A stretch of 63,263 bases of DNA, the filler included, from Kipferlia bialata (lineage: Eukaryota): assembly GCA_003568945.1 (NCBI GenBank). It is 5 parts of 5 records of this genome, joined end to end, with 100 filler letters (N's around TTAATTAATTAA, not from the genome) between each part and the next. Parts side by side here need not be neighbours in the genome. Positions count along the whole stretch, not along the records: positions 1 to 22,346 come from BDIP01000295.1; positions 22,447 to 44,767 come from BDIP01000296.1; positions 44,868 to 54,406 come from BDIP01000358.1; positions 54,507 to 60,185 come from BDIP01000360.1; positions 60,286 to 63,263 come from BDIP01000449.1. One strand, 5' to 3'. Under the pieces are notes generated by a model. It was given only the letters and a program-made list of their open reading frames with translations, was not told the origin of the DNA and searched no databases. The position numbers were made by a program, and so were the translations under genes. Below, in pieces: positions 4,568 through 63,187 of the stretch (the first letter of the stretch is position 1; every line of letters begins with the position of its first letter).

Positions 4568-6776
4568 CTACTCCTGTGGCACATAAGGAGTGCATATCTC
4601 CTCCTCATCGCTCTCCTCCTCCTCTGCACGATCATCACTCTCTAGATCGCAGCAGTCCTCTGCGAAGGCACTGTTGCTAGAGAATATGCTGTCTCTAGAG
4701 TCACCACACAGGTTGGTACCACTTCCACCCTCCTCTAGAGAGTCTACAGGGTCTCTCTCTTCCTCAGAACCGCCTTCTGCACGGAAGAGAGCCTCTTCTA
4801 GACATGCACGCCTGGGGTTATATAATGAAATGCACAAGACTATAGGCAGGGTCATGGCATAAGTAAGTATATATGAGTATACGGGTATATGCATCACAAT
4901 ACACACCTTGACTCCAGTTCCTGTGCAAATGTCAGGTTGGGGGACCCATCCTTGGTAGCACTCACAGACCCTCCAGACCCTCTTGTTCTCTCTCTCTCCC
5001 CACCCAGACTCTCCGAAGAACCCCAGAAGGAGTGAGCACCGGCCTTCTTAGACCCTCTAGAGTGCCTAGACCCTCTAGAGTGTCTACTGCTTCCGTGCTT
5101 GGATGTAGTGTAGGCACGCTGCATGATGCTGACACACTCAGCCATGTCCAAAAGGGTCTAGAGTAAGGAATAAAGATGTAGAGAGAGAGACATAGAGACT
5201 CCAGTGTAAAGAGAGAGGGAGAGACTGTATCTTTGTACCTCCTCTACCCCTTGTAAGTCCATTCTGATCCCCTTCCTGTCAGAGTAGTCCATGGTGAGAC
5301 GGATGTTGTCAGCGGCCTCGAGGTACTCCAGACACCTAGATATGAGTGTATACAGCACAGTTACATTGACACCTAGAGTAAGGATTGTATGTATGAATAC
5401 ATATATATATAGGAAGTTGTCAGCGGCCTCGAGGTACTCCAGACACCTGAGGGTGAGGAAAGGAAGACTATTACATTTACCACAAATATATTACAATTAA
5501 TACTGCTATATATAGGATGTTATCGGCAGCCTCGAGGTACTCTAGACACCTAGAGGTAAGTAAAGAAAATATAGAACATTAGTATACATAGCATATATAC
5601 AATACTGCCAGCAGTGTCAATTGTTTGAGAAACTTCGAATTACACTGGTTGAATTCACTTAACAATATGCTAAAAGTACCTCTGCAGTATGAGTGGACTG
5701 AGTCTGGGTACAATATTCTAATAATACATGCAATTATTTAAGGATCTGCCAAAAGTCTGCTATAAGAAATACCTCTGTAGTATGATAGGGTGCCCCTTGA
5801 GTGCACTAAGTCTAGGCACTATATGCTAATAATGTAGGCAATTACTTAAGTACCTGCTAAGAAATACTCTAAGTACCTCTGCAGTATGAATGGACTGAGT
5901 CTAGGTATAATATGCTAATAATACATGCAATTATTCAAGGATCTGCTAAATATCTGCTAAAAGAAATACCTTTGTAGAATGAGTGGGTGTCCCTTGAGTG
6001 CACTGAGTCTAGGCACAACATGCTAATAATACATGCAATTATTTAAGTATCTGCTAAAAATCTGCTAAAATAAATACCTCTGGAGAATGAGCGGGTGCCC
6101 CTTGAGAGCACTGAGTCTAGGCACCACTGTCACAACCTTGTTCATGCCATTGGCCCATCTGACATTAAGGGTGTAGGAGAGAGAGAGAGAGAGAGAGAGA
6201 TTGTTCATGCCATTGGCCCATCTGACATTAAGGGTGTAGAGNNNNNNNNNNNNNNNTGTTCATGCCATTGGCCCATCTGACATTAAGGGTGTAGAGGGGG
6301 GGAGAGAGAGATTATATACCATTGATCTGACTATCTCATAAACACATACATATATACCTCTCTATCAAGGTCACCCCTCTGTGGCAGGCCGCCAAGAGGG
6401 CCAGTGTCTCATCAACCAACACATCAAGGGTCAACTTACGGCTGAATATAAGGGGCTAGAGAGATAGAGAGAGAGAGAGAGAGAGACCACTAGATGACGT
6501 CTACTCACCTATCTCTTGGCCGCAAGAACCCAGCGTATCCACAAGGATATGCCTCCTCTGCGTTGTGTCCATCACCCTCTCCCTCTCTCTCCCTCTCTCC
6601 CCCATAGGCTGATGCACTGGTGTAGGGACAGGGGCCAAGGTCGGCAACAGGGGCCTGTAATTAGTATATAGATACAAATATGGGAAGGGGGAGAGAGAGA
6701 GAGAGAGAGATGCACTGGTGTAGGGACAGGGGCCAAGGTCAGCGACAGGAGCCTGAAATATGAGAAGATATACGAG

Positions 6777-6811
<35 letters not shown>

Positions 6812-7755
6812 GCACTGGTATATGGTCAGCGACGGGGGCCTAGGGTAAGACAGGGGGGGTGAGAGAGGGTATATGGGCAGAGAACAATATTGAGTGTATT
6901 GAGTATATACCTGCTCTGTAGCCCACATTGAATACATAGTATATAGTATATATAGTATATACTATATAAAGTCAGTGTATATATACCTGCTCTAGAGGCT
7001 TTAGGAAGCATGTCCCTGCATCTCTATCCATATATGTGCGTACTACACAACATACTGTGTGTACTACACAACATACATATACACATATACATACAGAGTA
7101 AATACCTGCTCTATAGCCCTTAGGAAGCATGTCCCTGCATCTCTCTCTATATACACGATATCTCTCTCTCTCTATATACAACGATACCGCTATCTATATA
7201 TACATACACATACATACCTGCTCTATAGCCCTTAGGAAGCATGTCCCTACTTCTCTCTCTATATACACGATATCTCTCTCTCTATATATACAACGATACC
7301 GCTCCCTATATATACTGTGACAATAATGATACCTGCTCTATAGCCCTTAGGAAGCATGTCCCTGCATGTATATAAATACCATCATTATATATATATGTAC
7401 TGTGTGTACTATATACACATATATATATGTAGTATACATACCTGCTCTATAGCCCTTAGGAAGCATGTCCCTGCCTCAATATATATACCACCTCTATACA
7501 TACATGTACTCTGTGTAGTATATACACACACATATATATATAGTGTATATGCTAACCTGCTCTATAGCCCTTAGGAAGCATGTCCCTGCATCTCCACTGG
7601 CCTCATCCATCAGGAGGGGGAGGATGGGGAGGCCTGGTGTTGGCAAGCTAAATAGTCATACATATATATGTATAGAGATAGAGAGAGAGAGAGAGAGACC
7701 TCATCCATCAGGAGGGGGAGGATGGGGAGGCCTGGTATTAGATATATACAGATAT

Positions 7756-7790
<35 letters not shown>

Positions 7791-7834
7791 CTGGCCTCAT
7801 CCATCAGGATGGGGAGGCCTAGTGTTAGGAACAC

Positions 7835-7868
<34 letters not shown>

Positions 7869-12870: not shown

Positions 12871-15001
12871 AGACCGAGAGAGAGAGAGAGAGGTCCAGGA
12901 CCATGACGTGGTCCTCTAGCCACCTGAGTGTAAGCAAGGAAAGGATATATGAACACATATGAATATATGAATCCAGATATTGACGTAGATATGAGAGACA
13001 GAGAGAGAGAGAGAGAGAGGTCCAGGACCATGTGGTTGTCCTCAAGCCACCCGAGGGTAAGTCGCTTTCTCCCTTCTCAATGTCTGCCCAGGGATCGCAT
13101 AGTAATATACTACGGTTGATGGCTAAATACACCCACCTTGCTCTTCTCTCAAACAGTCTCTCTTTCCTAGATCCTCCATACATATAGCTATACATATACA
13201 CTCATATAATACACCCACCTTGCCCTTCTCTCAAACTCATCTGCTCCAATGCGAGTCTCATAGGCATCCTGACAATAAGGGTGTAGGGAGGGGGAGAGGA
13301 TATTAAGGGTGTAGGGAGAGAGAGAGAGATAGAGAGAGTACATGTTAATACACTATACCTGTGGACTCTGGCAGAGCACCTTGTCGGCCCTTGACCTGAC
13401 AGCCACATAGCCACCCTGAGAATAAGGGTGAAGAGGGACAGAAAGGGTGTTACAAGAGAGTCCAAGGAATCACCGATACTCAAACAATACTATAATTGCT
13501 ACATATATACATATACACAATACCGATATATATAGAGATGTCGATATATACTATGTTACCTTCAACTCCTTGATGACATCCTGGTCCAGTATGACCATGC
13601 CAGGGGTGGACTCTCCATACACAGTGGCCTGGAATGAGGGTGTAGAGGGAGAGAGAGAATATGTGTGTGTGTGTATAGCTCTGACAGCCCTGATACTCTC
13701 TCTATGATGAGTCTCTCCCTCTCTCTCGATAGTATATATATACTCTCTCTATAGTATATGTACTGTACTATACCTCTGATAGTCTTGACACCCTCTCTAT
13801 GATGAGCCTCTCTCTCTCCTGACTCTCTGTCTCAGCAGGCAGGTCACGACACACACCGCCATCCTTGGTGACAACCTGGGCTTTAGGGGTGTAGAGGAAG
13901 AGAGAGAGAGAGACATCCTTGGTGACAACCTGGGTATTAGGGGTGTAGAGGGAGAGAGAGAGAGACATCCTTGGTGACAACCTGGGTATTAAGGGTGTAG
14001 GAGGAGAGAGAGAGACAGAGAGCGAGAGACCCCCTTATCGGAGGAGGGGGGTATACATACACATACAAACCTTGCATCTGGCCGAGTCCTCCTTGGCACT
14101 GGAGGCACCCAGAAGGGCCATATTCCTAGGCATTAGTGTTAGTACATATAAAGGGTATTGTTGTATACATATACCTGCTCATCTGGGCCCTGTCTGCCTT
14201 GGTCTTGACTGTCCTCTCGGCACTATATATATATATATATACATAGTATATAGTATATACATATATACACTGTATACCTACTCATCTGGGCCCTCTCTGC
14301 CTTGGTCTTGACTGTCCTCTCGGCATTATATATACACTATATAAGTCTATATATAGAGTATATCTACCTACTCATCTGAGCCCTGTCTGCCTTGGTCTTG
14401 ACTAGCCTCTCAGCACTATATATATACTATATGTACAGTATATATACACTATATATACACTATATACCTACTCATCTGAGCCCTGTCTGCCTTGGTCTTG
14501 ACAGTCCTCTCGGCACTATACGTACACTATATATATAGTATAGAGTGTGTATATATATATATTGTATATACCTACTCATTTGAGCCCTCTCTGCCTTGGT
14601 CTTCACTGTCCTCTCGGCACTGAGGGTCACACCGTTGTCGGGGTTCACAAGGGGTTCACTGTCAACCTAAAGGTAAATATGTTATCTATACATATATTTT
14701 CTATATAAATATTTTCTATACATATATCTATATATAAATTTCACATATTACGAGTAGTTATGAAGTAGTTATGAATACTATATGCATAGCAATTCACAAG
14801 GGGTTCACTGTCAACCTATGCATTAGGGTGTAGGGGGAGAGAGAAAGAGAGAGCAGAAGTTCACTATCACCCGCTATCGATCTCGAGGTTTGATTAGTAA
14901 CATACCTTGAGTACATCCTCCAGTGTGAGTGCCTTGGGGGCAGAGCCATCGGCACCAAGGTGGACAGTGACATACCTAGAGTGAGTAATATATATGTATA
15001 T

Positions 15002-15038
<37 letters not shown>

Positions 15039-16706
15039 AGTTCATCGGCACCCAGGTGCACGGTGAGAGGCAATATACACTAATATGGATGGGCACTATT
15101 ACATATGGATGAGTTCTCACTCTGATCTGTGTATATCCCTCGTGTACAATTACTCAGACACAAATACTCAGTATATACATATGCATTCATCTATACAGAA
15201 ACACATATAGAGATAGGGTACTCACTCTGATCTGTGTATCTCCCTCTGCCCATTCTCTGTGGACACAACCAGCTTGGAGCTGATGCAGTCCCTTGATGTC
15301 AGAGGAATACACTGGAAGACAATATGCATACTATTATAGAATAATGAATAATAGATATGCACTATTATATTTATATATATATGCTGTGGACACAACCAGC
15401 TTGGAGCTGATGCAGTCCCTTGGAGTCAATGCATATATATATAACATCTTCATACTATAGTAATACAAGCACACTATAATCCCTACTTTACCTTGATATG
15501 ACTGTGGCAGCCTCCCATCTCTCCCCATCGTCCTCCTCTCCCTCTCCCTCTCCATCTCCCTCTCTCATGCTCTTCCCAGGTACCCTGCAGTAGCCTCGCA
15601 GCAGGGCATCCTCACCTGCAACAGCAACAGCTACTCTATCCTGATATAAGGTATAGAGGATAATGATACACACATATATATATGCATATGTATGTCTGTA
15701 TATGTATGTCTGTATATGTATGTCTGTATATGCATGTCTGTATATATCCTCTCAGCATAGCATCTTCGCCTGCAACTGCTACAGCTACTCTATCATGATA
15801 TAAGGTATAGAGGATAATGAAACATATATATATATATATGCATATGTATGTCTGTATATACTCTCAGAATGGCGTCCTCCCCTCCCACAGCGACAGTAAC
15901 CGTGTCGTGGTATTAGTATAATACTGGTTTGATGGTGTACGTCTATACCTGCTCATGCAGACTCTCCCTGACCCAGTCACTGGTGGAGATGGCAGGGACA
16001 GTATATATATGTATACTTGTGTATAGTATATATATATATATATATATAGTATATACCTGTTCATGTAGACTCTCCCTGACCCAGTCACTGGTGGAGATGG
16101 CAGGGACGGGTTATACATATGCATTATATACAGTATATATGAGTATATATACACACATATATATATATATACCTGCTCATGCAGACTCTCCCTGACCCAG
16201 TCACTTGTGGATATGGCAGGGACAGGTGGCTCATTCCCAGTGACACTAGTGTTCAATCTAGAGAGGACCTAATGTAAGTCAAATAGAGAGTGTACTTGGG
16301 GAGAGAGAAATAGTTCACTGTATATATACCTTACTCCTGGGTGCCCTCGACACACTCTTTGACCTCACCACCCCATGGGCAGCAGAGGCAGAGTATACTA
16401 AATACTATATAATATATACTATATACTATACAATATACATATACATGTGTATACCTTGCTACGTGGGGCTCTAGATACACTCTTTGACCTCACCACCCCA
16501 TGGGCAGCAGAGGCAGAGTATATATATACTAAATACTATATACTATATACTATACAATATATATACTAAATCTATACTATTTATATTTAGTGTATATATA
16601 TACCTTACTCCTAGGTGCCCTAGACACACTCTTAGACCTCACCACCCCATGGGCAGCAGAGGCAGCTCTATCCACAGACTGAGAACGACCTGACATTAAG
16701 GGTGTA

Positions 16707-16749
<43 letters not shown>

Positions 16750-17331
16750 GGCAGCCCTATCAACAGACTGAGAACGGCCTGACTATAAGGGTGTAGAGGG
16801 GGGAGAGAGAGAGAGACTTGCTATACCCACCGCGAGACCCTGGTCCATGACAGGTGCCTGCACATATACATACTACTTTCACTATAGTATACCTACCAAC
16901 ATGATATTATGCCATATACTATAGTATATACCTATGACAGCCAGTCCCTGGTCCATGACCGGTGCCTGTGCAGCAATGAGGGACGGGATGGGGTAGGCCT
17001 GTTTTAATAGTGTAGATGTATATATGTAACAATATGTATATATATATAGAGAGAGAGAGTGGGGGGGTAGAGGTGTATAGACGGGATGGGGTAGGCCTGT
17101 GTTAGGAGTGTAGAGAGAGAGAGAGAGAGATGTATGAGTCTGTAAGTGTAAGAAGGCGAGGCACTAAAACCTTTCCACAATATCCTCAATAAAACGAATA
17201 CTAGTAGTACAACGAATATCGCTCATATACAAAATGTACCTGCTGGGATGAAGACAGACCCCTCTTCCTAGCAGCACCCCTGTCAGTAGAGGCAGACCTC
17301 CTGATAATTAGGGTGTAGAGGGGGAGAGAGA

Positions 17332-17363
<32 letters not shown>

Positions 17364-17405
17364 AGCACCCCTGTCAGTGGAGGCAGACCTCCTGACTATA
17401 AGGGT

Positions 17406-17438
<33 letters not shown>

Positions 17439-20400
17439 CACCCCTGTCAGTAGAGGCAGACCTCCTGACAATAGGGGTGTAGAGAGAGAGAGAGAGAGAG
17501 AGAGAAGCACCCCTGTCAGTGGAGGCAGAGCTCCTGACAATAAGGGTGTAGAGGGAGAGAGAGAGAGAAAGAGATAGGAAGAGAGGTACCTTGACACGGA
17601 GTTTGACCGGCCTCTCTTCTGGGAGGCTGCCCTGTCACCCTGATGTTACAATAATAGGGGTGTAGACAGAGAGAGAGAGAGAGAGAGAGAGAGCCTCTCT
17701 TCTGGGAGGCTGCTCTGTCACCNNNNAGAGAGAGAGAGAGAGAGAGAGCCTCTCTTCTGGGAGGCTGCTCTGTCACCCTGACATGAATATAATAGGGGGT
17801 GTAGAGAAAGAGAGAGAGAGAGAGAGAGAGCCTCTCCTCTGGGAGGCTGCCCTGTCACCCTGAAATGAAAAATAGGGGTGTAGACAGAGAGAGAGAGAGA
17901 GAGAGAGAGCCTCTCTCCTGGGAGGCTGCCCTGTCACCCTGAGATGAATATAAGGGTACAGACATATACAGATATATATATATATATAGGCATAATACTA
18001 TCATTGAGAAGACGAATGAAAGAAGGGGTGGAGAGACAGAGAGAGAGAGAGAAATACCTTTGAGAAGACATCTGGCACTTGGAGCTTGACAGAGACATAC
18101 ATATAAATACAAGTATATGAACATATATACAAGTATAATAGAAAATACATATATATATACCTTTGAGAAGACATCTGGCACTTGGAGCTTGACAGCTGGG
18201 CCAAGAGATGGGGCAAGAGAACCTGTTAATAAGGGTGTAGAGAGAGAGAGAGAGACACTTGACAGTTGTGGGGTAAAGGAGCCTAATAATAGGGAAGACG
18301 GTAGAGAGACTCGGTTTACTAGTTGTGGAGGATAGAAAGGGATAGTATACATACCTACACTGGCCCTCCTCTGGTTGACACTGGAACCTGGGATAAGGAA
18401 GTAGAAAGAGAGAGAGAGAGAGAGAGTATATGTTGACACTGAAACATGGAATAAGGGTGTAGAGAGTGAAAGGGAGAGAGAGAGTAGGAGTAACGATGGA
18501 TACCTGGAGAGCGGCGCTTCTCCTTCCTGACAGGCAGGTGCTGGACTGGGGTAGGAAAAAGTATATGAGAAAGGGAAAGATCCTCTCCACATGTGGCAGT
18601 ATTGTCAATATTTGTAAAATACATACATACAATACTGTATATACCTCTCTGTGGACTCTTGTGCTGGGGGTTCCTAGCTAATGCATCGGCCAAAAACTTG
18701 ATAGAGCCTGTAATTAGGGCTATAGAGAGAGAAAGAGAGAGAGAGACGGTATATGATTGTTACAAGGTGATAATTAATATAACACAATGTACAGACTAAT
18801 ATACCCTGTGAGTCCTGGCTTGGGTTGTCTCTCTCTCTCTCCCATCAATATACTATACATACACATATATATGTGTATATATACACTTTACCCTGTGAGT
18901 CCTGGCTTGTGTTGTCAGGGTTGGCAGCCAGTCTGTTGTACCAGGCACCAGACTGAGGGGACTGACAATAAGGGTGTAGAGAGAGAGAGAGACAGAGAGA
19001 GAGACAGTACCTTTCTCTACCCTCTCTGTGTGCTGCTGGATCTCTTACAAAAGGGTGTAGAGAGAGAGAGAGAGTATGTATAGAGAGAGAGAGAGAGAGT
19101 ACCTTTCTCGACCCTCTCTGTGTGCTACTGGACCTCACGACACTCCTAGGGTCCACTACCTTCTCCTGCTTCACCTCATCCTGATAATAAGGGTGCAGAG
19201 GGAGAGAGAACAATAAGGGTGCAGAGGCATATATCAGTCGACGATGACTATCGTGGGATTAATAATGACAATTCCGGTGCAGAGGGAGAGAGAGAGAAGA
19301 GCCTAATAAATATACCTCAGGTGATCCCCTGTCTCTGAGAGATGGTGTCAGTGCTCTTCCACTCTCTCTCACACTATAGATACATATATACAATATATAG
19401 ATAGATAGCTATATTTATATATACCTCAGGTGATCCTCTGTCTCTCAGAGATGGGGTCAGTGCCCTTCCTCTCTCTCCCTCTCTCACTATAGATAGATGT
19501 ATATATATATATATATATACCTCAGGTGATCCTCTGTCTCTGAGAGATGGTGTCAGTGCCCTCCCTACAGTGGGGCCTCTCTTGGACACAGACTTGGACC
19601 TGACCCTAAGGTTAGCATATACATATATATATAGATAGATAGATAGATATACAATAAAAGTTTATATGAAGAGAGAGAGATATACATAGGCCTCTCTTGG
19701 ACCTGACCCTAGTGTTAGACATGTAGAGTATATAGTATCGATACATGGTTATAGCAAGAGAGTGAGATGGCTAAGGGGGAGGGAGAGGGGGTATGTGGGG
19801 GGGGGGGGCAGATCTCAAAAGAGTACACCATACATATACTACACATACCTGTTATTGAAATATGCGGGTGTCTTGCTCTGTGCCACAGCATCTCTGCATA
19901 TATATATACATATACTAGATAGTGACTGAGAGATAGTAAGAGAGTTATATACCAAATGTACACACCTGTTGTTGAAGTATGCGGGTGTCTTGCTCTGAGC
20001 CACTGCGTCTCTGAGACCAGCACGGGACTTGGACCTAAGGTGAGATATATAGATATACGTATATATAGAGAGAGAGAGAAAGAGAGAGAGAAACCAGCAC
20101 GGGACTTGGACCTTGAATTAGAGAGAGGGGGGGAGAGAGGGAGAGGGAGAGAGAGAGAGAGAGTATCTCCGAGACCAGCACGGGACTTGGACCTGGACCT
20201 TGTATTAGAGAAAGAGAGAGATAGAGAGAGAGAGACCGGCACGGGCCATATATAGAAGGAGAGGAAGGAGGGAGAGAGGTAAGGGACTTAACCAGACTGG
20301 GCAAAACTGTAAAGGAAGAGGCGGATCGTGGGGGGGGGGGGGGTATGCAAACGTATCCTGACGCGTATAGGAGTGGACAAGAAGGGGATATAGGAGAGAG

Positions 20401-22346: not shown

Positions 22347-22446
22347 NNNNNNNNNNNNNNNNNNNNNNNNNNNNNNNNNNNNNNNNNNNNTTAATTAATT
22401 AANNNNNNNNNNNNNNNNNNNNNNNNNNNNNNNNNNNNNNNNNNNN
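22347..22446. other. Artificial contig/scaffold spacer
   Basis: N44-TTAATTAATTAA-N44 (stops in all six frames), flanked by poly-C runs. Confidence 0.98.
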
Positions 22447-22768: not shown

Positions 22769-24314
22769 ATGCCTCTTCCCCTCTCCCTCAGTGCCTTTGA
22801 GCATGCCTATGACTCATTCATATCACTCGAGAGGATAGAGACAGGTGCTCTCTCTCCCCCCTCTCTCTATGTCCCTCTCTTTGGCTAACAACCTATCCCC
22901 ATCACTCTGTCTATTCTATTCTCTAGAGGGTAGGATATGGTGTGTGCCCTCCGCAATTCCATCTCTGTTTCCGTTCTTTCCCTCTCTCTCATTGGTTCTA
23001 ATTTACTATTGTCCATATCACTCCATATGGACATGTTCACTTCCTTTCAATACAAGAATATCTTCTCTCTCTTCGTCTCTCTGACACAGGTAATCTGAAG
23101 GATGTGAGCTGCTTCGATCCCCTCCGTGTATCAGACAACACCTTTCTGCTCTCCAAGACCCTCTACGCAGTGGAGTATATAGAAGGGAGGCCAACACTGG
23201 TGCAGCGTGGCCCATTTCCATTTCCTGAGGTATACTGATCGATACAGATACATATTCTAATATGGCTGTAACATTAGTTAGTAGTTCGCTTATTTCATAT
23301 GAATATTTGTATATGTATTATATGTTACACTGGTGCAGCGTGGCCCATTTCCATTTCCTGAGGTCTTACTCTGTAGTTACACAAGATGAAGTCAGAAACA
23401 GATTCACATAGTATTCATATAGATACACATGTATTATTTATATACTGACTGGTGTGTGTTCTATACACAATACTGTTGCATTCTGTTACTATTTAGAGTA
23501 TGCCGAGGAATTTCAGTATCATATATATATATGTACTTCTTACACTTAGTGTATTACATTATATGCATTGTCACTATCTCTGACCTCTTAGAGTATGCCG
23601 AGGCGTTTCAGAGAGGCTCTCAGCATAGGCTCTTGCCTGTACTGCGATGCCCCATACCCTCTGCCCAAGGGTGCACAGTATGTGTTACACACAGATACAG
23701 GTAGGGTATTGAATATACTTATGTATATAGATATGAATGTATATACGCCCTATCCCTCTGCCCAAGGGTGCACAGTACGTGTTTCACACAGATACAGGTG
23801 TGTATATATATACATATATATGTATATACATGGATGTATTCTTGTATGTATATCATATACAAGTAGGATACTGAATATTCTACCCAACGGTGCAAAGTCT
23901 GTATTGCACACAGATACAGGTGGGGACATATATGTATATACATAACCATACTAATACACTTTGTGTATAGGATTATTTGGGCCGATACTATGGATATACA
24001 GAAAGGATGTATGTATATATAGTACCTCCCATACAGTATTGAGTGTCCTACTGTCATTAGGATACCATTACATTTAGATGACTCGCTCTTTACTCTTAGG
24101 TGATTGGACCGAGATTGATCCTCCCCCAACCCTGGATGAGGACTGTCGCACCTGCACTCTATCACAGTTTAACGGAAAGGTATTACCTTTTCTTACTCTT
24201 TCTCTTTGTTTTTCAACTATATACATATATATGTGCACCATGACCCCACGTAGCAGCCGTTCCCAGGAGTGGTTTATCTCTCTCCCTCTCTCCCTCTTAG
24301 TATAGGTCTATTAG

Positions 24315-24345
<31 letters not shown>

Positions 24346-24926
24346 ACACATGACCCCAGCTCCTACGCAGCACCCGTTCCCAGGAGTGGTATATCTCTCT
24401 CCCTTCCTTTCTCAGTATACATATAGTATATACTATTGTATTTCTATGTACCATGACACCAGTTGCTTCGAAGCACCCGTTCCCAGGAGTGGTCTATCTC
24501 TCTCTCTTTCTTTCTCAGTATACATATAGTATATATCTGTATATTAGTATATACCATGACCCCAGCTCCTACGTAGCGGCCGNNNNNNNNNNNNNNNNNN
24601 NNNNNNNNNNNNNNNNNNNNNNNNNNNNNNNNNNNNNNNNNNNNNNNNNNNNNNNNNNNNNNNNTCCCTCTCAGTATATATCTGTATATTAGTATATACC
24701 ATGACCCCAGCTCCTACGTTGTCTCTCTCTCTCCCCCTCTCAGTATATGTCTATTAGTATCTATATACATACGAGTGTGTGTGTACCATGACCCCAGCTC
24801 CTACGCAGCAGCCGTTCTCAGGAGTGGTTACTGGACACTGAGACTGAGACATGGGAACAGATACCCAAGCCAAAGGGTCTCTTTGGTGGGTCATGTGCTC
24901 TCTCTCTCTCTATGTATATACCTACA

Positions 24927-24975
<49 letters not shown>

Positions 24976-26281
24976 CCTGAGACCGAGACATGGGAGCTGC
25001 TGGAGAAACCTCCGATGCTCTTTGGTGGGTGTCAACTGATATCTCGCTATATCATTGGGTAAAGAGATATTGCCTGTGACATACTACTCATGTGTGCAAT
25101 ACGTTCCTATATGTATATGTATATATGTATGCAATCCGACACTGTTCGGTGAGTGTCAAAAGTATGTATACGTATATTTATGTATACAATGTATGTATCT
25201 CTCATTGTCCCCTAATTATTGAGCTTTAGTGAATAAAGGCTGGTAGTATGGACTTGTATATAGATTTACGTGTGTATATTCATCACGTATATAGGTCTGA
25301 ACGCCGGTTACAAACCAACTTGCTCTCTCTCTATATATATACATATATATAAACATATATGTATCTGAACCCAACCTGCTCTCTCTCTATACTCTATATA
25401 CATACATATATATATACCTATCTATCTCTGAACGCAGCGTACAACCCCCCTTTCATTGTTGGAGACCGTATCCTGCGACCATATTTCGAAATCATAGATG
25501 AAATAGACGGCAGAGAGACACAGCGTGTTTTGGCCTATCGCAAGACAGTATCCAAGGGTCAGCGAGAAGGAGAGGACGATCAGTGGAGGGATGACGAGGG
25601 CTGGAGTCTGCCAGAAGGTATATGAAGTGGATTCCCCATTGGCATCATATGTATATATATATATATATATAATATACTTATATACATGTATGCGCTAGGG
25701 CTGGTCTACCAGAAGTCATTGCCGACTCATACGTACATACACACATTATCCACCAGTTCCGATACCATGTCTGAAGTTTTGCGCTAGTGGTCTCAGTGAC
25801 TTTCATCATTAGTGTATGTACATTGTAAGTATGTGCTAAGAGACAACTGTTTGTATACATGATATATACGTACGCTTTGACCTAATTCCTGGGCTACCGT
25901 GCTGGGTTAGTTATTGGCATTAGTACTATTCCATCCAAATATATCCTATTTTCATATATGTATACAATCCCAAGTAGATATCGTAGTGTATGGACATATA
26001 TGTGTTGACAGTCATATATACACATGTACAAGCAATAACTCTAGGCTTTGTTGCAAGGTGTCCCATACCTATCGGACGTGGCACACTCTACCTGGGGTAC
26101 AGAGAGGTGAAGGTATGGAGGGAAACCACTGTGTGTCCTCTATCATATGTGAGTACACTGTCAGCTTTCCTGTATTATATCTTACCGTTAGGAGCTATAC
26201 GACGGGAGAGGCTCCAACAGAGTGACACGCCGGAATGGCTGGATAGACCCAGTGAGCAGGGAGTTCATAGAGGGGCCAGAG
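22769..26281 (+). CDS. Kelch-like beta-propeller protein, 8 exons, terminal exon not found
   Basis: Phase-compatible exons: MPLPLSLSAFEHAYDSFISLERIET/GNLKDVSCFDPL../SMPRRFREALSIGSCLYCD..VLHTDT/GDWTEIDPPP..SQFNGK/LLRSSRSQEWLLDTETETWEQIP../AYNPPFIVGDRIL../GFVARCPIPIGRGTLYLG../ELYDGRGS..WIDPVSREFIEGPE|GT. The repeated 'hhDt.t..W' blade motifs are Kelch-like. Confidence 0.65.
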
Positions 26282-26482
26282 GTAGGGGCATCATTTGTTC
26301 ATTTAGCATCATAGTGTGTATATACATAGTCATATATGTATATAAATGCATGTGAATTGACCCAGTGAGCAGGGAGTTCATAGAGGGACCTGAGGTATCA
26401 ATAGTAGTATATATACCTATATATATACACATTAGTACATATGTATATATATATATATAGTTGGAGAGTATGTTATTCATAC

Positions 26483-28426: not shown

Positions 28427-28603
28427 ACCTCTTGGAAAGTAAACTATACAGTATAAGTCACATTTTTGTCACCTGTGACTGTGTGGTGTCTCACCACACA
28501 CATATATATATAGTTGTTCGAGAGACATTTGGGTCAAAAATGAAACAAATGTCTGAAATAATCACATCTTTACAGGTGCTCTTTCAACCTCAATAACATC
28601 AAT

Positions 28604-32174: not shown

Positions 32175-32244
<70 letters not shown>

Positions 32245-35582: not shown

Positions 35583-36570
35583 TCAGTCTGACCCAGTCTC
35601 ATAGTCCTCAACTGAAGCATCATCTCCTTCTTCCTCTCTCTCTCCCTCCTCCTCCTCATTACCACCTTCATCTCCTACACTCTCCCTTCCAAACAGTACA
35701 TATTCCGTCTCAGGCACATCCCCCTCAACAGACACAGGAGTATCAGTCATGGCACTATCCCCCTCTCCCCTCCCTTTCCTCCCCATGGCTGTGTGGGGTG
35801 TGGGTGGCAGTGCTACCTTCAGACCACAGACCTCACTGCGGCAGTAGAAGCACTGGGGTGAGGGGCAGGCTGATATATATATGTATACTCTATTCATATA
35901 CATTCCTCTGTTCAAGTGCATTTTGAACTCTCTCCCTTGCCAGACATGAAGTTTTACATGTGGTCTATGAAGTACCAGCACTTACCTGTCTCTGTCTGTT
36001 CAAGTGCTTGCGACAACAGCACAGACATCCTGAGGGGTCAGCAGTGTAGACACATACATGTGTTTTCAATACGCATTCAATAGTTTGTATGTACACATTT
36101 GTCACAACACCCATACCTCTGTGCCCGCATGGCATGAAGACAGTGGCTCATGTTCTAGACACCTTGTATATATATACATATATATATGTATATATATTTA
36201 AATATATGTGAGTGTGTGAATATACCCCTGTGGCCGCATGGCATGAAGACAGTGTCTGACTCATGATCTAGACACACGGGGCACAGATCCTCATCCTTAG
36301 GCTCTCTCTCTCCCTCCCTCTCACTGGGAGTGGGTACATACTCAGCCTGGGTAGTAGGCCTAGGAACTCCCAGTCTCTCTCTCCTCTCCCTCCGCTTCCT
36401 CTCTTTCTCCCTCTCACTCTCTAGCAGGTATGTAACTCTCTCCCTCTCAAGAATCGAGGCCACCGGGCGGGGTAGAACACTTACGGGTAAGACCCACTTG
36501 AAATGAAATATCAAGTATTGAAAGTCTTTCTAATACTCAGAACGTCACCAGCCAGTGACTACATATGTAT

Positions 36571-36605
<35 letters not shown>

Positions 36606-54339: not shown

Positions 54340-54406
54340 GTGGGTGTATGCATATATGGGTAGATTAATATCACCCCCCCCCCCCCCCCCCCCCCCCCCG
54401 CCCCCC

Positions 54407-54506
54407 NNNNNNNNNNNNNNNNNNNNNNNNNNNNNNNNNNNNNNNNNNNNTTAATTAATTAANNNNNNNNNNNNNNNNNNNNNNNNNNNNNNNNNNNNNN
54501 NNNNNN
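54407..54506. other. Artificial contig/scaffold spacer
   Basis: N44-TTAATTAATTAA-N44. Confidence 0.98.
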
Positions 54507-54661: not shown

Positions 54662-57600
54662 ACCCCTGTGCCCTGTGCCGAGGGGGGTGTCACCCCTGAC
54701 ACCCTGCTGAGTGCCCTCCCTATACCCCTTCCACCCCCCATGGCCACAGACTCAGAGGACGAGGACTCAGAGGGTGGGGGGGAGGGCATGGTGCCTGAGG
54801 GCCTGGCCCTGAGGATGGAGTTCTATGCCGGGGACCCCCTGGTGTCAGTGGACCCAGACACTCCACTGGGTGGGTGATGGATGTAGTACAGTATAGTGCA
54901 TACATTCAGTATACAGTATGCACAGTACGGTAGTGTCTTACCCCAGGCTTCCTCTGTGCCCTGAGTCAGTCCTCCCTAGACACTGTGCACCTCACAGTGC
55001 ACTATGTACCCACTGTGGGAGAGGCAGGGGAGGGGGAGGGAGAGGAGGGAGAGGACGTCTCTCCCCTGGCCCTAGGCATAGCTGCACCCACCACACACAC
55101 TCTGGCACAGTTCAGGCATGGCATGGATATATCTATATATACTTGTATATTATAATGAATGTTACTAGATTGGGGAGTGACATCAGTGCCCCCCCCCCCT
55201 CCTATCCTCTCTGTATCTTACCCCAGTGGAGTTGCTTCCTACGACGCCTCTACCCCCTGCCCCCTCTGCCTGCCCTCTTGTGTGCACTGTGACACATTCA
55301 CCAACGTGCTGAGCAGGGATCTCTCCACCCTCTACTGCATAGACAATGCTAGGCAGGACGTGATGCAGGTGGGTATGGCATGGGCATCCTCTTCACACAT
55401 TCTATGTATGTCGATATTCTGATACAGTCTACATCATATACTCATATGTCATGTATATGTACACTCCTCACCCCAGGCTGTCCCCCTCTCCAGCTCGCCC
55501 TCCCTTACCTCCACCAACTGGCTGGTAGCATCAGCAGAGGGGGCCAGGCTCTGGGTGGTAGCAGTGAGTCTTGACGGAGAGGTCAAGGTGGGTGTCTGAG
55601 TATATACGCAGCACATACGAGTACCTCTTCACCCTGCGTCTCCTTCTACCTCACCCACTCCCAGGTCCATGCTGTGTCCACTGACTGTGCCTGGATAGAT
55701 GCCGCTGTCACCATAGCACCCCAGGCACAGACAGTCCTCAAGGCAGGCACAGGTGGGGGAGGCGTGTATCAGTGGGTGCAAGAATTAGTAGTCTGTACAC
55801 TCTCACTTCTCCTATCCTATTGGACCCAGAGTCCATCACCTCTCACCCCCAGTCTGTGGAGTCACCCGCAACGTCTCCACCAACCACGTGTGGCTATCTG
55901 TCTCTGAGCCCGTGAAGCCCAAGGCTGATGAGGATGATCAGCATGTGTCCCACATCCTGTGTCTATCATTCAACTCGGGTCACCCCTCCCTCAACGTGCT
56001 CTGTACACTCCCCACTCCCTTCACTCTCACAGGCGGTCTCCAGCACTTCTCTGTGTGTGGCACTGAGGTACATATACACATAACCATTGTATCATTTGTG
56101 TGTGCTATACTTATGGATCATGGCAATATGTGTTCATAGTCAAGTATTGTGTCTACGTTTCAATCCTGTCCTTATGCCAGGTGCTTCTTGCCTCTGGTAC
56201 TACCCGCCTTGTGCTTGATACCAAGACAGGGCACGGCAGACCTCTCTCCCTTGCCGACGACCACCTCTCCCTCCCCATATCCCTTTCCCCCCATGGCACC
56301 CTGTTGAGTGACAGCGGTATGCTGCACCTGGTGTGTCCCAGTGGGACTACAGTGGTGGTGGCTAGGGGTGTGGCACAGTATGCGGTGCACGGGGGGACTC
56401 TCTTCTGGGTGGGAACGGACACGCACATGCGCAGGTACAGAGTAGTAGCTATGAACTGTAGTTACTCTATCTGCATATACGGATGCCCCTCTCACCCTAG
56501 GACCGAGCTCTCGTGCCTGGACTCTGTCCCCCAGCTCCCCTCCACCTCAGCCACTATGGAGGTGGACACTAGGCTGCACGACATACCCGCCCTTGTCCCC
56601 CCCTCCAGTGCTGAGGGGTGGAGCCTTGTGTGCCCCACCTCAAGCACAGACTGCCTGTACATGGTTCTAGGGGAGGGGGAGGCAGGGGAGAGCGTGTCTG
56701 TGTGCGTCGAGCACCGGCACATATCTGGGCAGACCCTAGATGTCAGAGGGGCATGTGCCGCAGAATGCAAGGTGGAGGGTACACGCAGCATGGAGGGCTG
56801 CGGGGTGTATGTTGGAGGCACTGTGTATGCCAGAGTGGGGGGTAGGCTGATCAGTGTGCAAGTAGTGCCTGCATCTACAGATGCTGCCCCTCTGTCTGTG
56901 TGTGACCACGGACTCAGTCTGACCAGCCAGCCCAGACTGACCCCAGACAGAACAGGTCTACTCCTAGGTCAGACAGACTGATAGTGGTGTACTCATACCT
57001 CAGTCCAATACCTCACGCTCCCTCTCTAACCCACCAGACACTCCCTCAGGCATGCGCATCCTCCACCTCCCCCACGGGTCCCTACCCCCCAAGGTGGGGC
57101 CTAGCCACGTGGCCCGTAGGCAGTGTGGGTGTGTGTGTGCCCAGAAGGTAGATGAGTGTATGGCAGACACGCAGGACGTGGAGCCAGAGGCATCGCCAGC
57201 CGCAGAGGGTGGGGACGCATACACCTATGTGGGACGGTACCTGGGCCAGACTGATATCCTACTGAACGGGGTGGTCAGAGGTATATATGTACTCTTGCCA
57301 TACTACCGCTCTACTATGCTACTCTCCCCCTTCCCTCCCCCCAGGCCCCTTTGGCTGGGCCCTTGTGAAGAGGGGTGTGGTTGTGCCCTTTGTCGAGTCT
57401 GTGCCCTCAGGCCAGCAGACACCCTCAGCACATACACAGGCACAGGATGGGGTGGAGAGAGAGAGACTCGACAGTGCCAGGCTGGCAGCCCAGGCAATAC
57501 AGACAGGTACCAGAGGCTACGATATAGTTATTCCCAAATACACATCCATACACACGCTCCTACCATTCAGGCAAGTCCCAGCGCCTCCACTTTGTTGGAG

Positions 57601-59550
57601 TGGACCTTGCCGGCACCCTTGCCCACCTCTCCTTCAGACACTGTCTGTTTGAGGGGTGTACTATTACAGGGTGTGAGCAGTCTAGATTCAGAGACTGTGT
57701 GTGGAGTGACTGTACCTTTGTGGCATGCAACTTCAAGAGGTGTGACATGGGGGCATGCCTGATGGAGGGGTGCGACCTCTCCCATAGCAACATGAACCAA
57801 GCAGTGGTGGTGGACACATCTATGGATAGGTGGGGAGGCTATGCCTGACTGCGTCTAGAATTGTATTGACATGCATCTTCGTATATATATATATACCCAC
57901 CCCAGGTGCAGACTGGACCGGTCCTACTGGGACGAGGGGTGCCGGGTATCGGGCCTCTCCCTCTCCCACACCTCTCTCTCTTCCACCACTGTGTCCACCT
58001 TCCAGGGGTGGAGGTTCAAGGAGTGGGACACGTTCTCAGAGACATACCTAGGCCCGGGGTGCAACCTGGCAGGTGAGTCCAGGGTGACATGTATATATAC
58101 AAAGTAATATCGATACCTCTAACAATTTATACCCGATATTTGCGACCCTCACCCCCCAGGCCTAGTCCTCCGCACCAAGAACGGTGTCTCCTATGAGTAC
58201 TGCCCCTTGACAGGACGTGACCTCAAGGGGTCCAGTCTGAGGGGGGCAGACGTCACAGGGATAGACCTGACAGGGTGCAACCTAGAGGGTATGTCACATA
58301 TGTGTGTCACTGCATAGAATGACGAATACATCATATGTTGCCCTGTCACTCCTCACTCCTCAGACTGTGACCTGACCGGGGCAGTGTGTCTCACCCCCAT
58401 CCACCTAGTCCAGGCTGCCTCCATCGCTGGGTGCACCCTGTCTGCAGATGTGGAGGGATGGGACCTCAAGGGGGTGGACATGCAGAGATGTGACCTCAGT
58501 GCAACATCAGGTGTGTTACTACCATATACTACCTCATATATGTGTAGATGCACTGAATAGAGCCATCTCTCACCCAGGCCTGACCTGCACCCATCTGAGG
58601 GAGAGTGGAGGGTGCCAGGGGGTGGTGCTCAAGTACCTGACCCTCAAGGGAGACCTCTCCCACACAGACCTCACAGGGGCAGACCTCAGTGGGGCCAACC
58701 TCTCAGGTGGGAGAGGGCATATTCCTACTCTGCTATGGTGTGTGTGTATGGGTTGTCTCACCGTCAGGGTGTGATCTCACTGGGGCCACTCTCACTGGGT
58801 GCAACCTGGAGGGCACCAACATCACTGCATGTACCATGGAGGATAGCACACTGCCCGCAGACATATCCATGGCAGTGCAGGTACAGGGGATACCATATAT
58901 AACTGGGGTCTATCTATGTATTATGTCCTGCTATGCTACGTGCCTAAAACTCCCCTCACACCAGAACCCTCTCTCCTTCACCTTCACCAAGGTGACTACC
59001 AGTAAGGTGGTACTCAATGAGGCACTAGATACCGCAGAGGCCTACCACGAGTGGAGGGAGACAGCGGTGAAGGGCTCCAACACCATCCGCAACACCAACG
59101 GGCGTGTCAATGTTGTTGTCCCACCTGTCGAGGGCGCTGAGTTCACTCTGACTGGGTCCTTCAACAACAGCAGCAACCAGTGGAAGGCCAACACCCGCTT
59201 CCACTACCCCACTGTCATGTTCCCCTCCACAGGCCACCATGCGGATGCCACGGACAAGGAGGACCTGGTGCTCAAGGGGACGAGGAGGGGAGGGGTCATC
59301 AGGTGGGGGTATAGTATACGAGTATGTGTATATATCTGTCTACTATGTGTCTCTGATGTCAGCATCAGCAACCCCAAGGGAGAGGACGTCGAGGTGCCCT
59401 GCAAGAGAGGCCAGGTAGGATACAGTATGTAGCTAATGCGATATCATACTCTGTATGGTGTTTATATACCTATGTATACTCAACCCCCAGGACTGTGTCA
59501 TCAGACTCTTCCTCAAGCACGGGAACTTCTCCATCCGTGTTGGACACTAG
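54662..59550 (+). CDS. Multi-exon pentapeptide-repeat protein (5'-partial)
   Basis: Short GT-AG introns. The 57570-58880 exons give classic A(D/N)LXX repeats (GRDLKGSSLRGADVTGIDLTGCNLEDCDLTGA; GDLSHTDLTGADLSGANLSGCDLTGATLTGCNLEGTNIT). The gene ends DCVIRLFLKHGNFSIRVGH* at 59550. Confidence 0.85.
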
Positions 59551-60117: not shown

Positions 60118-60185
60118 CTGGGCATCAGAGGGCAGTGTGTGTGTGGGGGGGGGGGGGGGGGGGGGGGAAACACCCAAAAAATAAA

Positions 60186-60285
60186 NNNNNNNNNNNNNNN
60201 NNNNNNNNNNNNNNNNNNNNNNNNNNNNNTTAATTAATTAANNNNNNNNNNNNNNNNNNNNNNNNNNNNNNNNNNNNNNNNNNNN
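60186..60285. other. Artificial contig/scaffold spacer
   Basis: N44-TTAATTAATTAA-N44. Confidence 0.98.
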
Positions 60286-60509
60286 GATTTTCTTTATTTT
60301 TCTCCCCCCCCCCCCCCCTCCCCTCCCTATTGAAGCCCAACTCCCCCCAGAATCGTTCACCTCCCCTGTCTCTCTCTGTCTCTCTGTCTCTCTATAGAGA
60401 GTGTGTCTCTCCTCACAGACCCCTTCACCACCTCCCCGTCTCTCTCGGTCTCTCTCTCTTCCACACCCACATATAAACATATACATTTATAAACTGTATC
60501 TCACTCCAG

Positions 60510-62827
60510 ACCCCTTCACCACCTCCCCTGTCTCTCTGTACTACGAGACCATCACGGCATTCGTCAGTGCAGAGCTCGATAGGTATATATATATATATAT
60601 ATATGCAATACTATATATGATGTATATACTATGTATATATATGTATATATATCTGTACCGTTGAATACTATGGTGGATCTACTATATATAGTACTAATAT
60701 ATTCATCAATATGTATGTATGATACCATCACGGCATTCGTCAGTACCCAGCTCGATAAGTGTGCATATATGCCACTACCACAGTACTATGTACTGTGTTT
60801 GAATTGTTATACTCACCTCCAGGGATGTGTACCTCTCCCATTGGGCCGGTGGGTTATGCTATATATATACAATGTTCTATGTATATAGTACTATATATGT
60901 AATACTATATGCGATATATACTAACCCTAGGGATGTGTACCTCTCCCACTGGGCCGGTGGCTTCAGGTCAGAGGACCACTATGCACTCCACAACACAGGA
61001 GGTATAAGGGAACCCATATATGTGATATATGTGCTTTCTATGCCATTCCTCATGTCACCACATAATAATTCACATATGGTCACATATGTTGTCACTTACC
61101 CCCAGGCGAGGTGTCCACCTACAGTGCCGTTGAGCTGGCAGCCAGCATCAAGAGGTTCAGCAGGTATAGTGTATCTATATCTATCTATCTATATACATGT
61201 ATGTATATACATTTTCTATATATTTCTACTATCTACATATATATATACGTATATGCTTATCAAGAGGTTCAGCAGGTATAGAGTCTATTGATATGAGTAT
61301 TTGAATACATGTCAAGTAGTGTTAAATTAGTGATACGTGTGCTAATATGTGTATATTGTATATGGAGCTGGCAGCCAGCATAAAGAGGTTCAGTAGGTAT
61401 TGCCCATATGTATTCTCTCTCTCTCTCTCTCTCTCCCTCTCTCCCCCCCTCTACCCCCTCACCACCAGAGTGAGGCACATGCCCTTCCCCTACTTCCTTG
61501 TCTCTCTCTCTCTCTCTCTCTCCCTCTACACCCTTAATGTCAGAGTGAGGCACATGCCCTTCCCCTACTTCCGTGTCTCACTGCCATACATCTGTGAGGG
61601 CATCGACTACCACGACAGGATAGGTACATACAGAGAGATGTATATATATATGTATGTGAGTGTATCAACATAATATGGATATCCCTCCCATACATTTGTG
61701 AGGGCTACGACTACCATGACAGAATAGGTACATATATGTATATTTATATATATATAGAATAGGTATAATATATATATATATAGGATAGGTACATGTATAC
61801 GTATGAATGTTATTTCCTGTCGATATTCGGCTTCTTTTGACTTCAAAATCCTCCATACATATACTAGTATACATACTCTTATCCTTCAGGCAACATCTCG
61901 ATCTCCGTTGTCCACTCCATCAGTATATATGTGTATCATTACTTCATATGGTTTTATGTATGCAATTGTAGTGTATATATTCATTCTCTTACCCATTAGG
62001 CAACATCTCGACCTCCGTTGTTCACTCCATCAGGGGCAAGGAGACATCCCTCTCACTGTCACCAAGGTATCCCGTGCATGTTCTTTCTACCATTTACCAT
62101 ATACAACCTACCAGATGTTTCATATATACCCATGTCACCCTATGTCTAGTAGACATTGTCTACCCTTCACCCCAGGTCCCCCCTCCTCCCCAACTACCGC
62201 ACTGAGTTTGACGTCCATTACAACTACCCCAACCAGCAGCCAGAGGGACCCATGGTGTTCAGGTATATGTATGCATATACTGTCACTTATGGCATTGTTG
62301 AACAGAACATATTCATTCATTGTTCTCTTACCCCCAGGAACCCCTTCAACAACGTGTACAGCGCCAGAGTGCACCTGGCCAGAGAGGTATGGCAAATATA
62401 GAAATCATTTACTAGTAGCTTGTGAACTATTTCAAATGAAAGGATATAATTGTTGTGATGTCATTCCTCAACCCAGGTCGACCCTGTCCTTCTCTACACC
62501 AGGATCAAGACATGCTTCCACCTCCCAGCAGGTACGCTATTATCTCTCTCTTTCCTGATACTGATACTGATACTGATACTCCCAACAGGTATGCTAGTCC
62601 AACCCCCCCCCCCCTCCCCCTCTCTCTATCTCTGTCTGATACTGATCAAGACATGGTTCCACCTCCCAGCAGGTCTACCGAGAGTATGGTACTATCTTCC
62701 TCTCTCTCTCTCCGTATTCAATCTTAGGACCCTTGTCTGCCGAGTTCTCTCTCTCTCTCTCTCCTTCTAGGTCCTTATTCCAGGCGCCCCTATTATCAGA
62801 CCCATGGCCCCCTCCTCTACTGAGTCG

Positions 62828-62872
<45 letters not shown>

Positions 62873-62933
62873 TAATTTCTTACTCTAGGTGCTACTGACA
62901 TTAACTTGATGGCACCCTTCTCCACCGAGTCCC

Positions 62934-62966
<33 letters not shown>

Positions 62967-63187
62967 ACTGCTTACTCTAGGCGCTACTGACATTAACTTG
63001 ATGGCCCCTTTCTCCACTGTGTCCTCTCTCTCTCTCTCTCTCTCTCTCTAGACCCTTACTCTAGGCGCCACTGATATCAACCTCATGGCACCCTTCTCCA
63101 CTGAGTCCTCTCTGGAGCACAGCCACTACTTCCTGGACTACCCCACACACCCCGTGCTGTGTATAGAGAGGGGTAGAACTGTGCCAG
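60510..63187 (+). CDS. RPN1: Ribophorin I / oligosaccharyltransferase subunit OST1 (internal exons; both ends missing)
   Basis: Spliced motifs occur in the expected order: VSLYYE..RDVYLSHWAGGFRSEDHYALHNTG, SLPYICEGIDYHDRIGNISTS, PLLPNYRTEFDVHYNYP, FHLPAGATDINLMAPF, HYFLDYPTHPVLCIE. These match the ribophorin I motifs as recalled (IEVSHWG, YYRDEIGNVSTS, FPLFGGWK..GYN, ILPEGA, YTYLDTFGRPV). Confidence 0.88.

What the first reader, a model, noticed from the sequence alone, without database searches (positions are those of the whole stretch)
5301..63110. Window-wide 'exon echoes': intronic half-exon duplicates that diverge almost only at synonymous sites
Seen: across at least seven unrelated genes, introns contain tandem partial copies (30-65 nt) of the adjacent exon edge with its splice site, typically without a usable opposite splice site. 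Hand counts of differing codons (synonymous/non-synonymous) against the real exon: 5515-5550 4/0; 5968-6016 5/0; 8006-8050 6/2; 9046-9107 6/0; 10046-10107 7/3; 15747-15794 7/1; 19849-19895 5/0; 26357-26395 3/0; 36116-36145 2/0; 48062-48103 6/0; 48768-48806 4/0; 49521-49574 8/1; 62889-62932 6/0. The total is 69/7. A neutrally decaying intronic copy next to a constrained exon should give roughly 40-50% synonymous differences (my estimate). Inference, three options: (a) echoes are patches captured from strongly diverged alleles or homeologs by unequal recombination; (b) they are repeatedly recombined or converted back into the exon and so remain under protein-level selection; (c) they are used by an unrecognised DNA- or RNA-level rearrangement. 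Caveat: pairs and boundaries were chosen by eye, and older degenerate echoes exist (e.g. 23879-23920, three synonymous and three non-synonymous).
Basis: partly seen in the sequence, partly recalled or inferred. Interest (0 to 1): 0.92.

Follow-up and report, generated by a model that had tools for sequence, protein, structure and literature searches.

The report
Introns hoard other alleles' exon ends
In the free-living flagellate Kipferlia bialata, about half of the introns examined carry head-to-tail copies of a neighbouring exon end that differ from the working exon mainly at silent positions, likely because they were picked up from other working alleles by unequal recombination, which would make them a record of past outcrossing in a group where sex has not been seen.

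Summary
The echoes are real, and the synonymous bias survives an automated count, at a lower level. The window is five joined contigs of Kipferlia bialata. The search kept 110 echoes at 74 exon edges; 55 of 114 introns carry one. Each unit is about 103 nt: an exon edge plus part of an intron. Differing codons are 222 synonymous to 113 non-synonymous (66%, not 91%). pN/pS is 0.17-0.19, against 0.49-0.67 in simulated neutral decay. Changes private to one echo are also synonymous-rich (59:43). For one intron, DNA contigs carry the echoes in cis at full depth, and an RNA contig splices them out. Intron spacers and silent sites differ by 20-28%, while amino-acid sites and GT/AG differ by only 5-7%. 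That is how two working gene copies differ. Best reading (about 0.6): unequal recombination between very divergent alleles, seeded by microhomology at microsatellites and extended by misaligned exchange, captures another allele's exon end, which then decays. No donor allele was observed and no other isolate could be compared. I found no description in print.

The parts
4569..20034 (-). Gene A (uncharacterised, 46 modelled exon pieces in three blocks); 61 of the 110 echoes
   Evidence: Models without internal stops; five exon blocks and three joints match an RNA contig; no protein match
5336..6077 (-). 742-nt intron with six echoes: acceptor side 5412-5446 and 5515-5549; donor side 5773-5819 and 5970-6019, plus degenerate 5690-5711 and 5887-5905 (these two not among the 110)
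   Evidence: DNA contig 5419-6167 with 0 differences, depth 495 against 472-475 in flanking contigs; RNA contig joins 5333 to 6076
6987..7477 (-). Five-copy donor-side array of exon 7557-7633; 0 synonymous and 6 non-synonymous codons (looks neutral, against the main trend)
14175..14517 (-). Four-copy donor-side array of exon 14572-14666; five distinct haplotypes with the exon, one four-gamete pair
15745..15896 (-). Two acceptor-side echoes of exon 15492-15640 (7/1 and 5/2), both with the AG lost
17361..17938 (-). Acceptor-side arrays of exons 17240-17300 (3 copies) and 17590-17639 (4 copies); copies end at the same exon position before (TC)n
23090..26394 (+). Gene B with 9 echoes (17/15 codons, weak bias)
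35583..44441 (-). Gene C, C3HC4 RING protein, 16 echoes (22/26 codons, weak bias)
   Evidence: Pfam PF13920 E 2e-6 on one exon
45997..49403 (+). Gene E (K. bialata hypothetical protein P0002), 9 echoes (15/5)
47976..48013 (+). Echo that the public protein model P0002 includes, with intron read-through, as an extra 20-aa exon
   Evidence: not tested against RNA
49521..49579 (-). Echo of the last coding codons and stop of gene F, lying behind the stop codon (8/2); the repeat runs on into untranslated sequence (49479-49574 vs 49583-49678)
54662..59550 (+). Gene D, pentapeptide-repeat protein: internal control, 0 echoes in 18 short introns (60-117 nt)
60510..63187 (+). Gene J, ribophorin I (P0001), 12 echoes (26/14), none included in the public protein
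62784..63029 (+). Three acceptor-side echoes of exon 63065-63187, each running into (TC)n through microhomology; five four-gamete pairs

Best explanation
Each echo unit is a tandem duplication of about 100 nt with one break in an exon and one in the next intron, and its exon part was likely captured from a different working allele by unequal recombination between very divergent homologous chromosomes, after which it decays. Shown: the tandem structure, cis arrangement and splicing-out at one intron, the synonymous excess, and the divergence classes. Inferred steps: (1) introns of two alleles are too different to pair, so exchange starts in exons; (2) a break in an intronic (TA)n/(TC)n tract re-primes at 1-7 nt of microhomology inside the homolog's exon, which makes the first echo; (3) only duplications that leave one whole exon survive, hence the edge anchoring; (4) echo and exon edge then mispair between homologs, so arrays expand and contract, keep the old junction and take in fresh allelic sequence; (5) the implied allelic diversity at silent sites is about 0.17-0.25, and the isolate has since become homozygous or haploid at the tested locus.
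For: pN/pS 0.17-0.19, CI 0.14-0.26, against 0.49-0.67 simulated. Echo-private changes 59 synonymous to 43 non-synonymous, p<1e-8 against 0.30, so the bias is not just the exon evolving. Flank identity 0.63-0.65 against 0.57-0.58 for unrelated introns, yet GT/AG is intact in 93 of 108, although the search query held exon sequence only. The 39 of 107 alignable spacers differ by 19% with pS 0.275 and pN 0.048. pS and pN are uncorrelated (rho 0.01-0.08). Junction microhomology averages 1.8 nt against 0.34 by chance, n=22; 17 of 25 arrays share the junction within 2 nt against 14% expected. pN is lowest within 12 nt of the splice site (30/961 against 109/1944, p=0.003). Four-gamete pairs occur in 2 of 7 arrays with 3 or more copies. 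Amino-acid changes are mildly conservative (43% against 29% BLOSUM-positive, n=56, p=0.035). K. bialata has PolQ, Spo11, four Dmc1, Msh4 and XPF; metamonads lack NHEJ and fornicates lack Rad51A. Crossovers prefer exons in hypervariable Schizophyllum, whose silent diversity is 0.13-0.20 (abstracts).
Against: No donor allele was seen: DNA contigs show one version of the tested exons, P0001 and P0002 clusters have one member, and the metagenome scan gave only an unrelated-looking hit. The required diversity equals or exceeds the highest values I read. Genes B and C show a weak bias (17/15, 22/26) and one five-copy array has 0/6. Echo-echo pN/pS is 0.34. The exponential spread of pS that I predicted from single coalescent times was not met (gamma shape 3.3; shape 1 fits no better than Poisson). 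The single-clock rival is rejected only at P 0.007-0.048 for shapes 2-3. Spacer divergence could partly come from slippage or from exchange of shared intron modules rather than from alleles.
Confidence: 0.6

Rival explanations
1. Echoes stay under protein-level selection because contraction crossovers or conversion often move them into the working exon, so a damaged echo is a delayed null allele.
For: It is the reciprocal product of the same mispairing. Shared junctions and four-gamete pairs show exchange among copies. GT/AG retention and mildly conservative changes fit.
Against: Echoes carry 5 frameshifting indels and 3 stops. pN does not rise with pS, as one clock with constant constraint predicts (simulated rho 0.24-0.44 against 0.08 observed). 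By my estimate it needs Ne times the exchange rate above 1, which again implies very high diversity.
Confidence: 0.15
2. Only two lineages are involved: an old hybrid or long-asexual diploid exchanged patches between its two diverged haplotypes and later lost one.
For: It gives the same functional-copy signature without population-wide hyperdiversity. The genome paper reports two k-mer peaks.
Against: Nine three-state sites, all at third positions, and up to five haplotypes at one exon edge suggest more than two sources, though decay and mosaics could make some of them. No second haplotype at 85% identity or more was laid on the tested exons.
Confidence: 0.13
3. Echoes are sometimes spliced in as extra or alternative mini-exons and translated.
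For: The public model P0002 includes echo 47976-48013 as an in-frame exon. 17 of 52 donor echoes have a YAG near their start, 5 in frame.
Against: The RNA contig skips all six echoes of the tested intron with no variant letters. P0001 includes none of gene J's 12 echoes. 5 in frame of 17 is what chance gives. An echo lies behind a stop codon.
Confidence: 0.05
4. Assembly artefact: allelic haplotypes were laid in tandem.
For: Allelic pieces would show exactly this divergence pattern. A few copies flank N gaps (6257-6276, 17693-17722, 12709-12815). The DNA run may be the source of the assembly, and only one intron was tested.
Against: A separately assembled 749-nt contig crosses the junctions with 0 differences at depth 495, against 472-475 in flanks and 386-494 at other loci. 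Arrays of up to six versions exceed a diploid. Junctions share only a few bases, too few to join in a k-mer graph.
Confidence: 0.04
5. Ordinary same-chromatid tandem duplications decaying neutrally beside a constrained exon.
For: It explains the edge anchoring and the unit size, and fits some arrays (6987-7477, 0/6) and the 16 of 110 identical echoes.
Against: It predicts pN/pS of 0.5 or more; no bootstrap replicate of 5000 reached 0.5. It predicts 24-30% synonymous among echo-private changes; 58% was seen. Identical echoes still have near-unrelated flanks.
Confidence: 0.02
6. A programmed DNA rearrangement or RNA template switch swaps echo and exon edge.
For: None found here.
Against: No DNA joint deleting a unit and no echo variant in RNA at the tested locus (contigs drop rare forms).
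Confidence: 0.02

Closest known systems
Human F7 intron 7 37-bp VNTR (PMC1557585, abstract seen)
   Same: A tandem array whose first unit spans an exon-intron boundary, leaving silent downstream donor pseudo-sites while the first site is used.
   Different: F7 is one locus with identical pseudo-sites. Here about half of the introns are affected, on donor and acceptor sides, with 18-63 nt of coding sequence that differs like a working allele.
Pseudogenic exons (PMC2718932, abstract and Ka/Ks section seen)
   Same: Duplicated exon sequence decaying next to its parent exon.
   Different: Those affect 0.4-1.0% of mammalian genes and peak at Ka/Ks 0.25-0.75. Here they are half-exons, 6 of 7 genes are affected, and pN/pS is 0.17-0.19 with synonymous excess on the echo branches.
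Exon-biased crossing-over in hypervariable Schizophyllum commune (PMC4209137, PMC4576712; abstracts seen)
   Same: Silent diversity of 0.13-0.20 and recombination confined to conserved exons, the regime my model needs.
   Different: The abstracts describe equal crossovers measured in a cross, not tandem remnants; here diversity and crossing are inferred from one genome.
Polymerase-theta end joining and unequal exchange in minisatellites (recalled; PolQ in K. bialata from PMC8516963 supplement)
   Same: Few-base microhomology junctions, arrays that reuse a junction, mosaic units.
   Different: Units hold an exon edge under selection in one copy; the enzyme's role is untested.

Membership tests
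Pseudogenic exon / neutrally decaying duplicate | Copy is excluded from mRNA | tested here: met
   One intron, six echoes, RNA contig; not tested for the other introns
Pseudogenic exon / neutrally decaying duplicate | Changes on the copy's branch are neutral (24-30% synonymous; overall pN/pS about 0.5) | tested here: not met
   59/43 echo-private; 0.17-0.19 overall
Pseudogenic exon / neutrally decaying duplicate | Disabling frameshifts or stops | tested here: met
   5 frameshifting indels and 3 stops among 110 echoes; a minority
Splice-boundary minisatellite (F7 IVS7 type) | Head-to-tail units spanning the boundary, outermost site used | tested here: met
Splice-boundary minisatellite (F7 IVS7 type) | Near-identical units over their whole length | tested here: not met
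   Flank identity 0.63-0.65
Splice-boundary minisatellite (F7 IVS7 type) | Copy number varies between individuals | not testable with these tools
   Only one sample held the DNA
Mutually exclusive duplicated exons | Each copy is a whole exon with both splice sites | tested here: not met
   Echoes are 18-63 nt edges; at most 61 nt even for exons over 130 nt
False duplication of haplotypes in assembly | Half depth and no read support across junctions | tested here: not met
   Depth 495 against 472-475, one contig across the junctions, one intron only
Introner elements (features recalled) | One element family with terminal repeats and short target duplications creating whole new introns | tested here: inconclusive
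   Echoes copy their own neighbouring exon, which is not Introner-like; but a 3' intron module is shared by hundreds of loci and was not analysed
Unequal exchange between divergent alleles | Copies differ like functional alleles (neutral sites far more than constrained sites) | tested here: met
   Spacers 19-28% and silent sites 26% against 4.5% amino-acid sites and about 7% GT/AG
Unequal exchange between divergent alleles | Echo variants exist as working alleles in other chromosomes or isolates | not testable with these tools
   No second allele or isolate was found

The most novel reading that the evidence does not exclude
K. bialata, lacking Ku and Rad51A and repairing with Dmc1 and polymerase theta, runs a genome-wide cycle in which exon ends from other alleles are parked in introns and swapped back into exons often enough to be selected: a distributed silent-cassette reservoir for ordinary housekeeping genes, which also drives intron growth.
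Probability: 0.15. Interest if true: 0.92.

Novelty: new variant of a known kind. Interest (0 to 1): 0.74.

Why it matters
If the echoes are captured alleles, one genome holds thousands of small samples of other haplotypes (extrapolating from 110 in 63 kb, untested). They would give an estimate of silent diversity (about 0.17-0.25, as high as the most diverse eukaryotes in the abstracts read) and evidence of inter-homolog exchange in Metamonada, where no sexual or parasexual process has been directly observed (PMC8516963). Each echo adds about 105 nt to its intron (r=0.86), so the process explains most intron-length variation here and may help explain why this genome is large for a fornicate. 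The arrays are also a natural test of how a reduced spliceosome ignores intact decoy splice sites. In practice they can mislead gene prediction.

Tried and rejected
No whole genome was held, so nothing was counted genome-wide. Reads could be laid on only one 2.5-kb stretch; about 6450-6900 of it has no cover, and two short parts were cut at repeats, which says nothing either way. The RNA run is a guess by the tool, though its contig is spliced at GT-AG introns. Gradient of age along arrays: proximal copy closer in 14, farther in 6, tied in 5 of 25; p=0.17, not supported. Codon-preference direction: echo codon commoner in 94, rarer in 100, no direction. Exponential spread of pS: not supported. 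The metagenome scan with P0001 returned one locus, L001, 63% GC with no microsatellites, taken as unrelated. Gene A found no protein match. Pfam matched 3 of 23 exons, one of them weakly. Gene E was in the wrong frame and was corrected. Regions 100-1500, 28500-30100 and 30300-33600 were not modelled because their frames were uncertain. The donor chosen at 11497 is doubtful but bears no echo. Searches for a prior description: plus term look-ups in PMC5874029 and PMC6679479; none describes it. Subscription papers and the genome paper's supplements were not seen.
Full report
Setting. The window is five contigs joined by artificial spacers. Two exons are 100% identical to public Kipferlia bialata proteins, ribophorin I (P0001) and a hypothetical protein (P0002). 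No whole genome was held. I modelled seven genes (114 introns) with a self-trained exon finder and hand curation. The model of gene J lies letter for letter inside P0001. The model of gene E matches P0002 except for the start codon and one extra predicted exon. An RNA contig confirms three joints of gene A.

Observation. A self-comparison shows short direct repeats about 100 nt apart through four of the five contigs. Aligning each exon's first and last 90 nt to its adjacent intron, with a threshold above the best score in introns of other genes, gave 125 hits. I kept 110 by geometry. They sit at 74 exon edges, 57 on the donor side and 53 on the acceptor side; 55 of 114 introns carry at least one. 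The median echo is 34.5 nt and the median unit 103 nt; intron length rises by 105 nt per echo. Overall pS is 0.262 and pN 0.045. The ratio is 0.19 (CI 0.14-0.26) with a conservative count, and 0.16 using only the proximal echo of each edge. Neutral simulations through the same detector give 0.49-0.67.

Real DNA. In the one stretch that could be laid, a 749-nt contig assembled separately from run X1 spans 5419-6167 with no difference. Its depth is 495, against 472-475 in flanking contigs. An RNA contig from run X2 joins the real exon edges across the 742-nt intron and shows no variant letter. X1 may be the source of the window, so this checks the assembly, not a second individual. It covers four counted echoes and two degenerate ones; contigs drop rare variants.

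What the divergence says. If an echo were a neutral copy, changes found in one echo alone should be 24-30% synonymous; they are 59 of 102. The intron flank beside an echo is barely closer to the real flank than unrelated introns are (0.63-0.65 against 0.57-0.58), even when the exon part is identical, yet GT or AG is intact in 93 of 108. Among the 39 of 107 alignable spacers, divergence is 19%, with pS 0.275 and pN 0.048; over all 107 it is 28%. pN stays at 0.04-0.06 across pS bins, and the two are uncorrelated. So neutral sites differ by 20-28% and constrained sites by 5-7%. By inference, echo and exon spent most of their time apart as two working, spliced copies. One lineage cannot supply this even if the copies swap roles, because only one copy is the exon at a time. 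The donor must be another allele, homeolog or paralog. No such copy was laid on the tested exons, and both protein clusters have one member.

Decay. Echoes are not kept intact: 5 frameshifting indels, 3 stops, 15 of 108 splice dinucleotides lost or misregistered, and a five-copy array with 0/6. Genes B and C show a weak bias. Echo-echo pN/pS is 0.34.

Mechanism. Junctions with a dinucleotide tract show 1.8 nt of microhomology against 0.34 by chance (22 junctions; the alignment end is approximate). In 17 of 25 arrays two copies end within 2 nt of each other; this fits copying of an existing junction, or reuse of one favoured spot. Two of seven larger arrays contain four-gamete pairs, and nine sites, all third positions, have three states. 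pN is lowest next to the splice site. One echo lies behind a stop codon, so splicing is not needed to make them. I infer a rare microhomology-primed switch from a broken intronic microsatellite into the homolog's exon, survival only when one exon stays whole, then expansion and contraction by mispairing between homologs. Subtracting up to twice pN from pS leaves allelic silent divergence of at least 0.17. The repair set fits but was not tested: no NHEJ in metamonads, no Rad51A in fornicates (PMC8516963 passages); PolQ, Spo11, four Dmc1, Msh4 and XPF in K. bialata (its Supplementary Data 2 rows); Dmc1 stabilises mismatched triplets (PMC6719624, short abstract).

Against. No donor allele was observed. 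The diversity needed is at the top of the known range (0.13-0.20 in Schizophyllum). My prediction of an exponential spread of pS failed, and a single-clock model with selected echoes is rejected only moderately for narrow age distributions. One public gene model includes an echo. There is no significant age gradient along arrays.

Comparison and novelty. The nearest cases are the F7 intron 7 minisatellite (abstract), pseudogenic exons (abstract and one section) and exon-biased crossing-over in a hypervariable fungus (abstract). Earlier notes of this scan describe single exon-edge duplicates in other genomes as ordinary debris (unchecked); they led me to the F7 and pseudo-exon papers. The genome paper (parts 1-3 of 6 read, plus term look-ups) reports 124,912 introns and a diploid k-mer signal and does not mention duplications or tandem copies. 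Searches found no description. The ingredients are known; the density and the working-allele signature appear undescribed.

Verdict. Real, not neutral, overstated at 91% but solid at 60-66%. New variant of a known kind; captured-allele model about 0.6; interest 0.74.

Noticed in passing
window 6248-6331 and 5156-5239: Summed DNA contig depth is about 275,600 and 23,000 against about 480 for single copy: hundreds of unrelated loci share the same short intron 3'-end module behind a (TC)n tract; 20 motif matches in the window. This suggests exchange of intron ends between unrelated introns, or a common mobile origin.
   Followed up: partly
window 54662-59550: The pentapeptide-repeat gene has 18 short introns and no echo (p=2e-6 against 55 of 96 elsewhere), in the most GC-rich contig; possibly a different recombination regime or a younger gene.
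   Followed up: partly
window 47976-48035: The public protein P0002 holds an echo plus intron read-through as a 20-aa extra exon: annotation error or real inclusion.
   Followed up: no
window 12709-12815: 52 identical bases on both sides of NNN inside an exon: an unmerged scaffold overlap, not an echo.
   Followed up: yes
window 2017-2310: A 72%-identical tandem pair of about 160 nt outside modelled exons: duplications are not limited to exon edges.
   Followed up: no
window 51794-52032: A short two-exon gene on the minus strand whose translation looks like ribosomal protein S29 (label recalled; ORFs), without echoes.
   Followed up: no
window 22347-22446, 44768-44867, 54407-54506, 60186-60285: Artificial 100-base spacers: the window is five separate contigs, so the genes are not neighbours.
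   Followed up: yes
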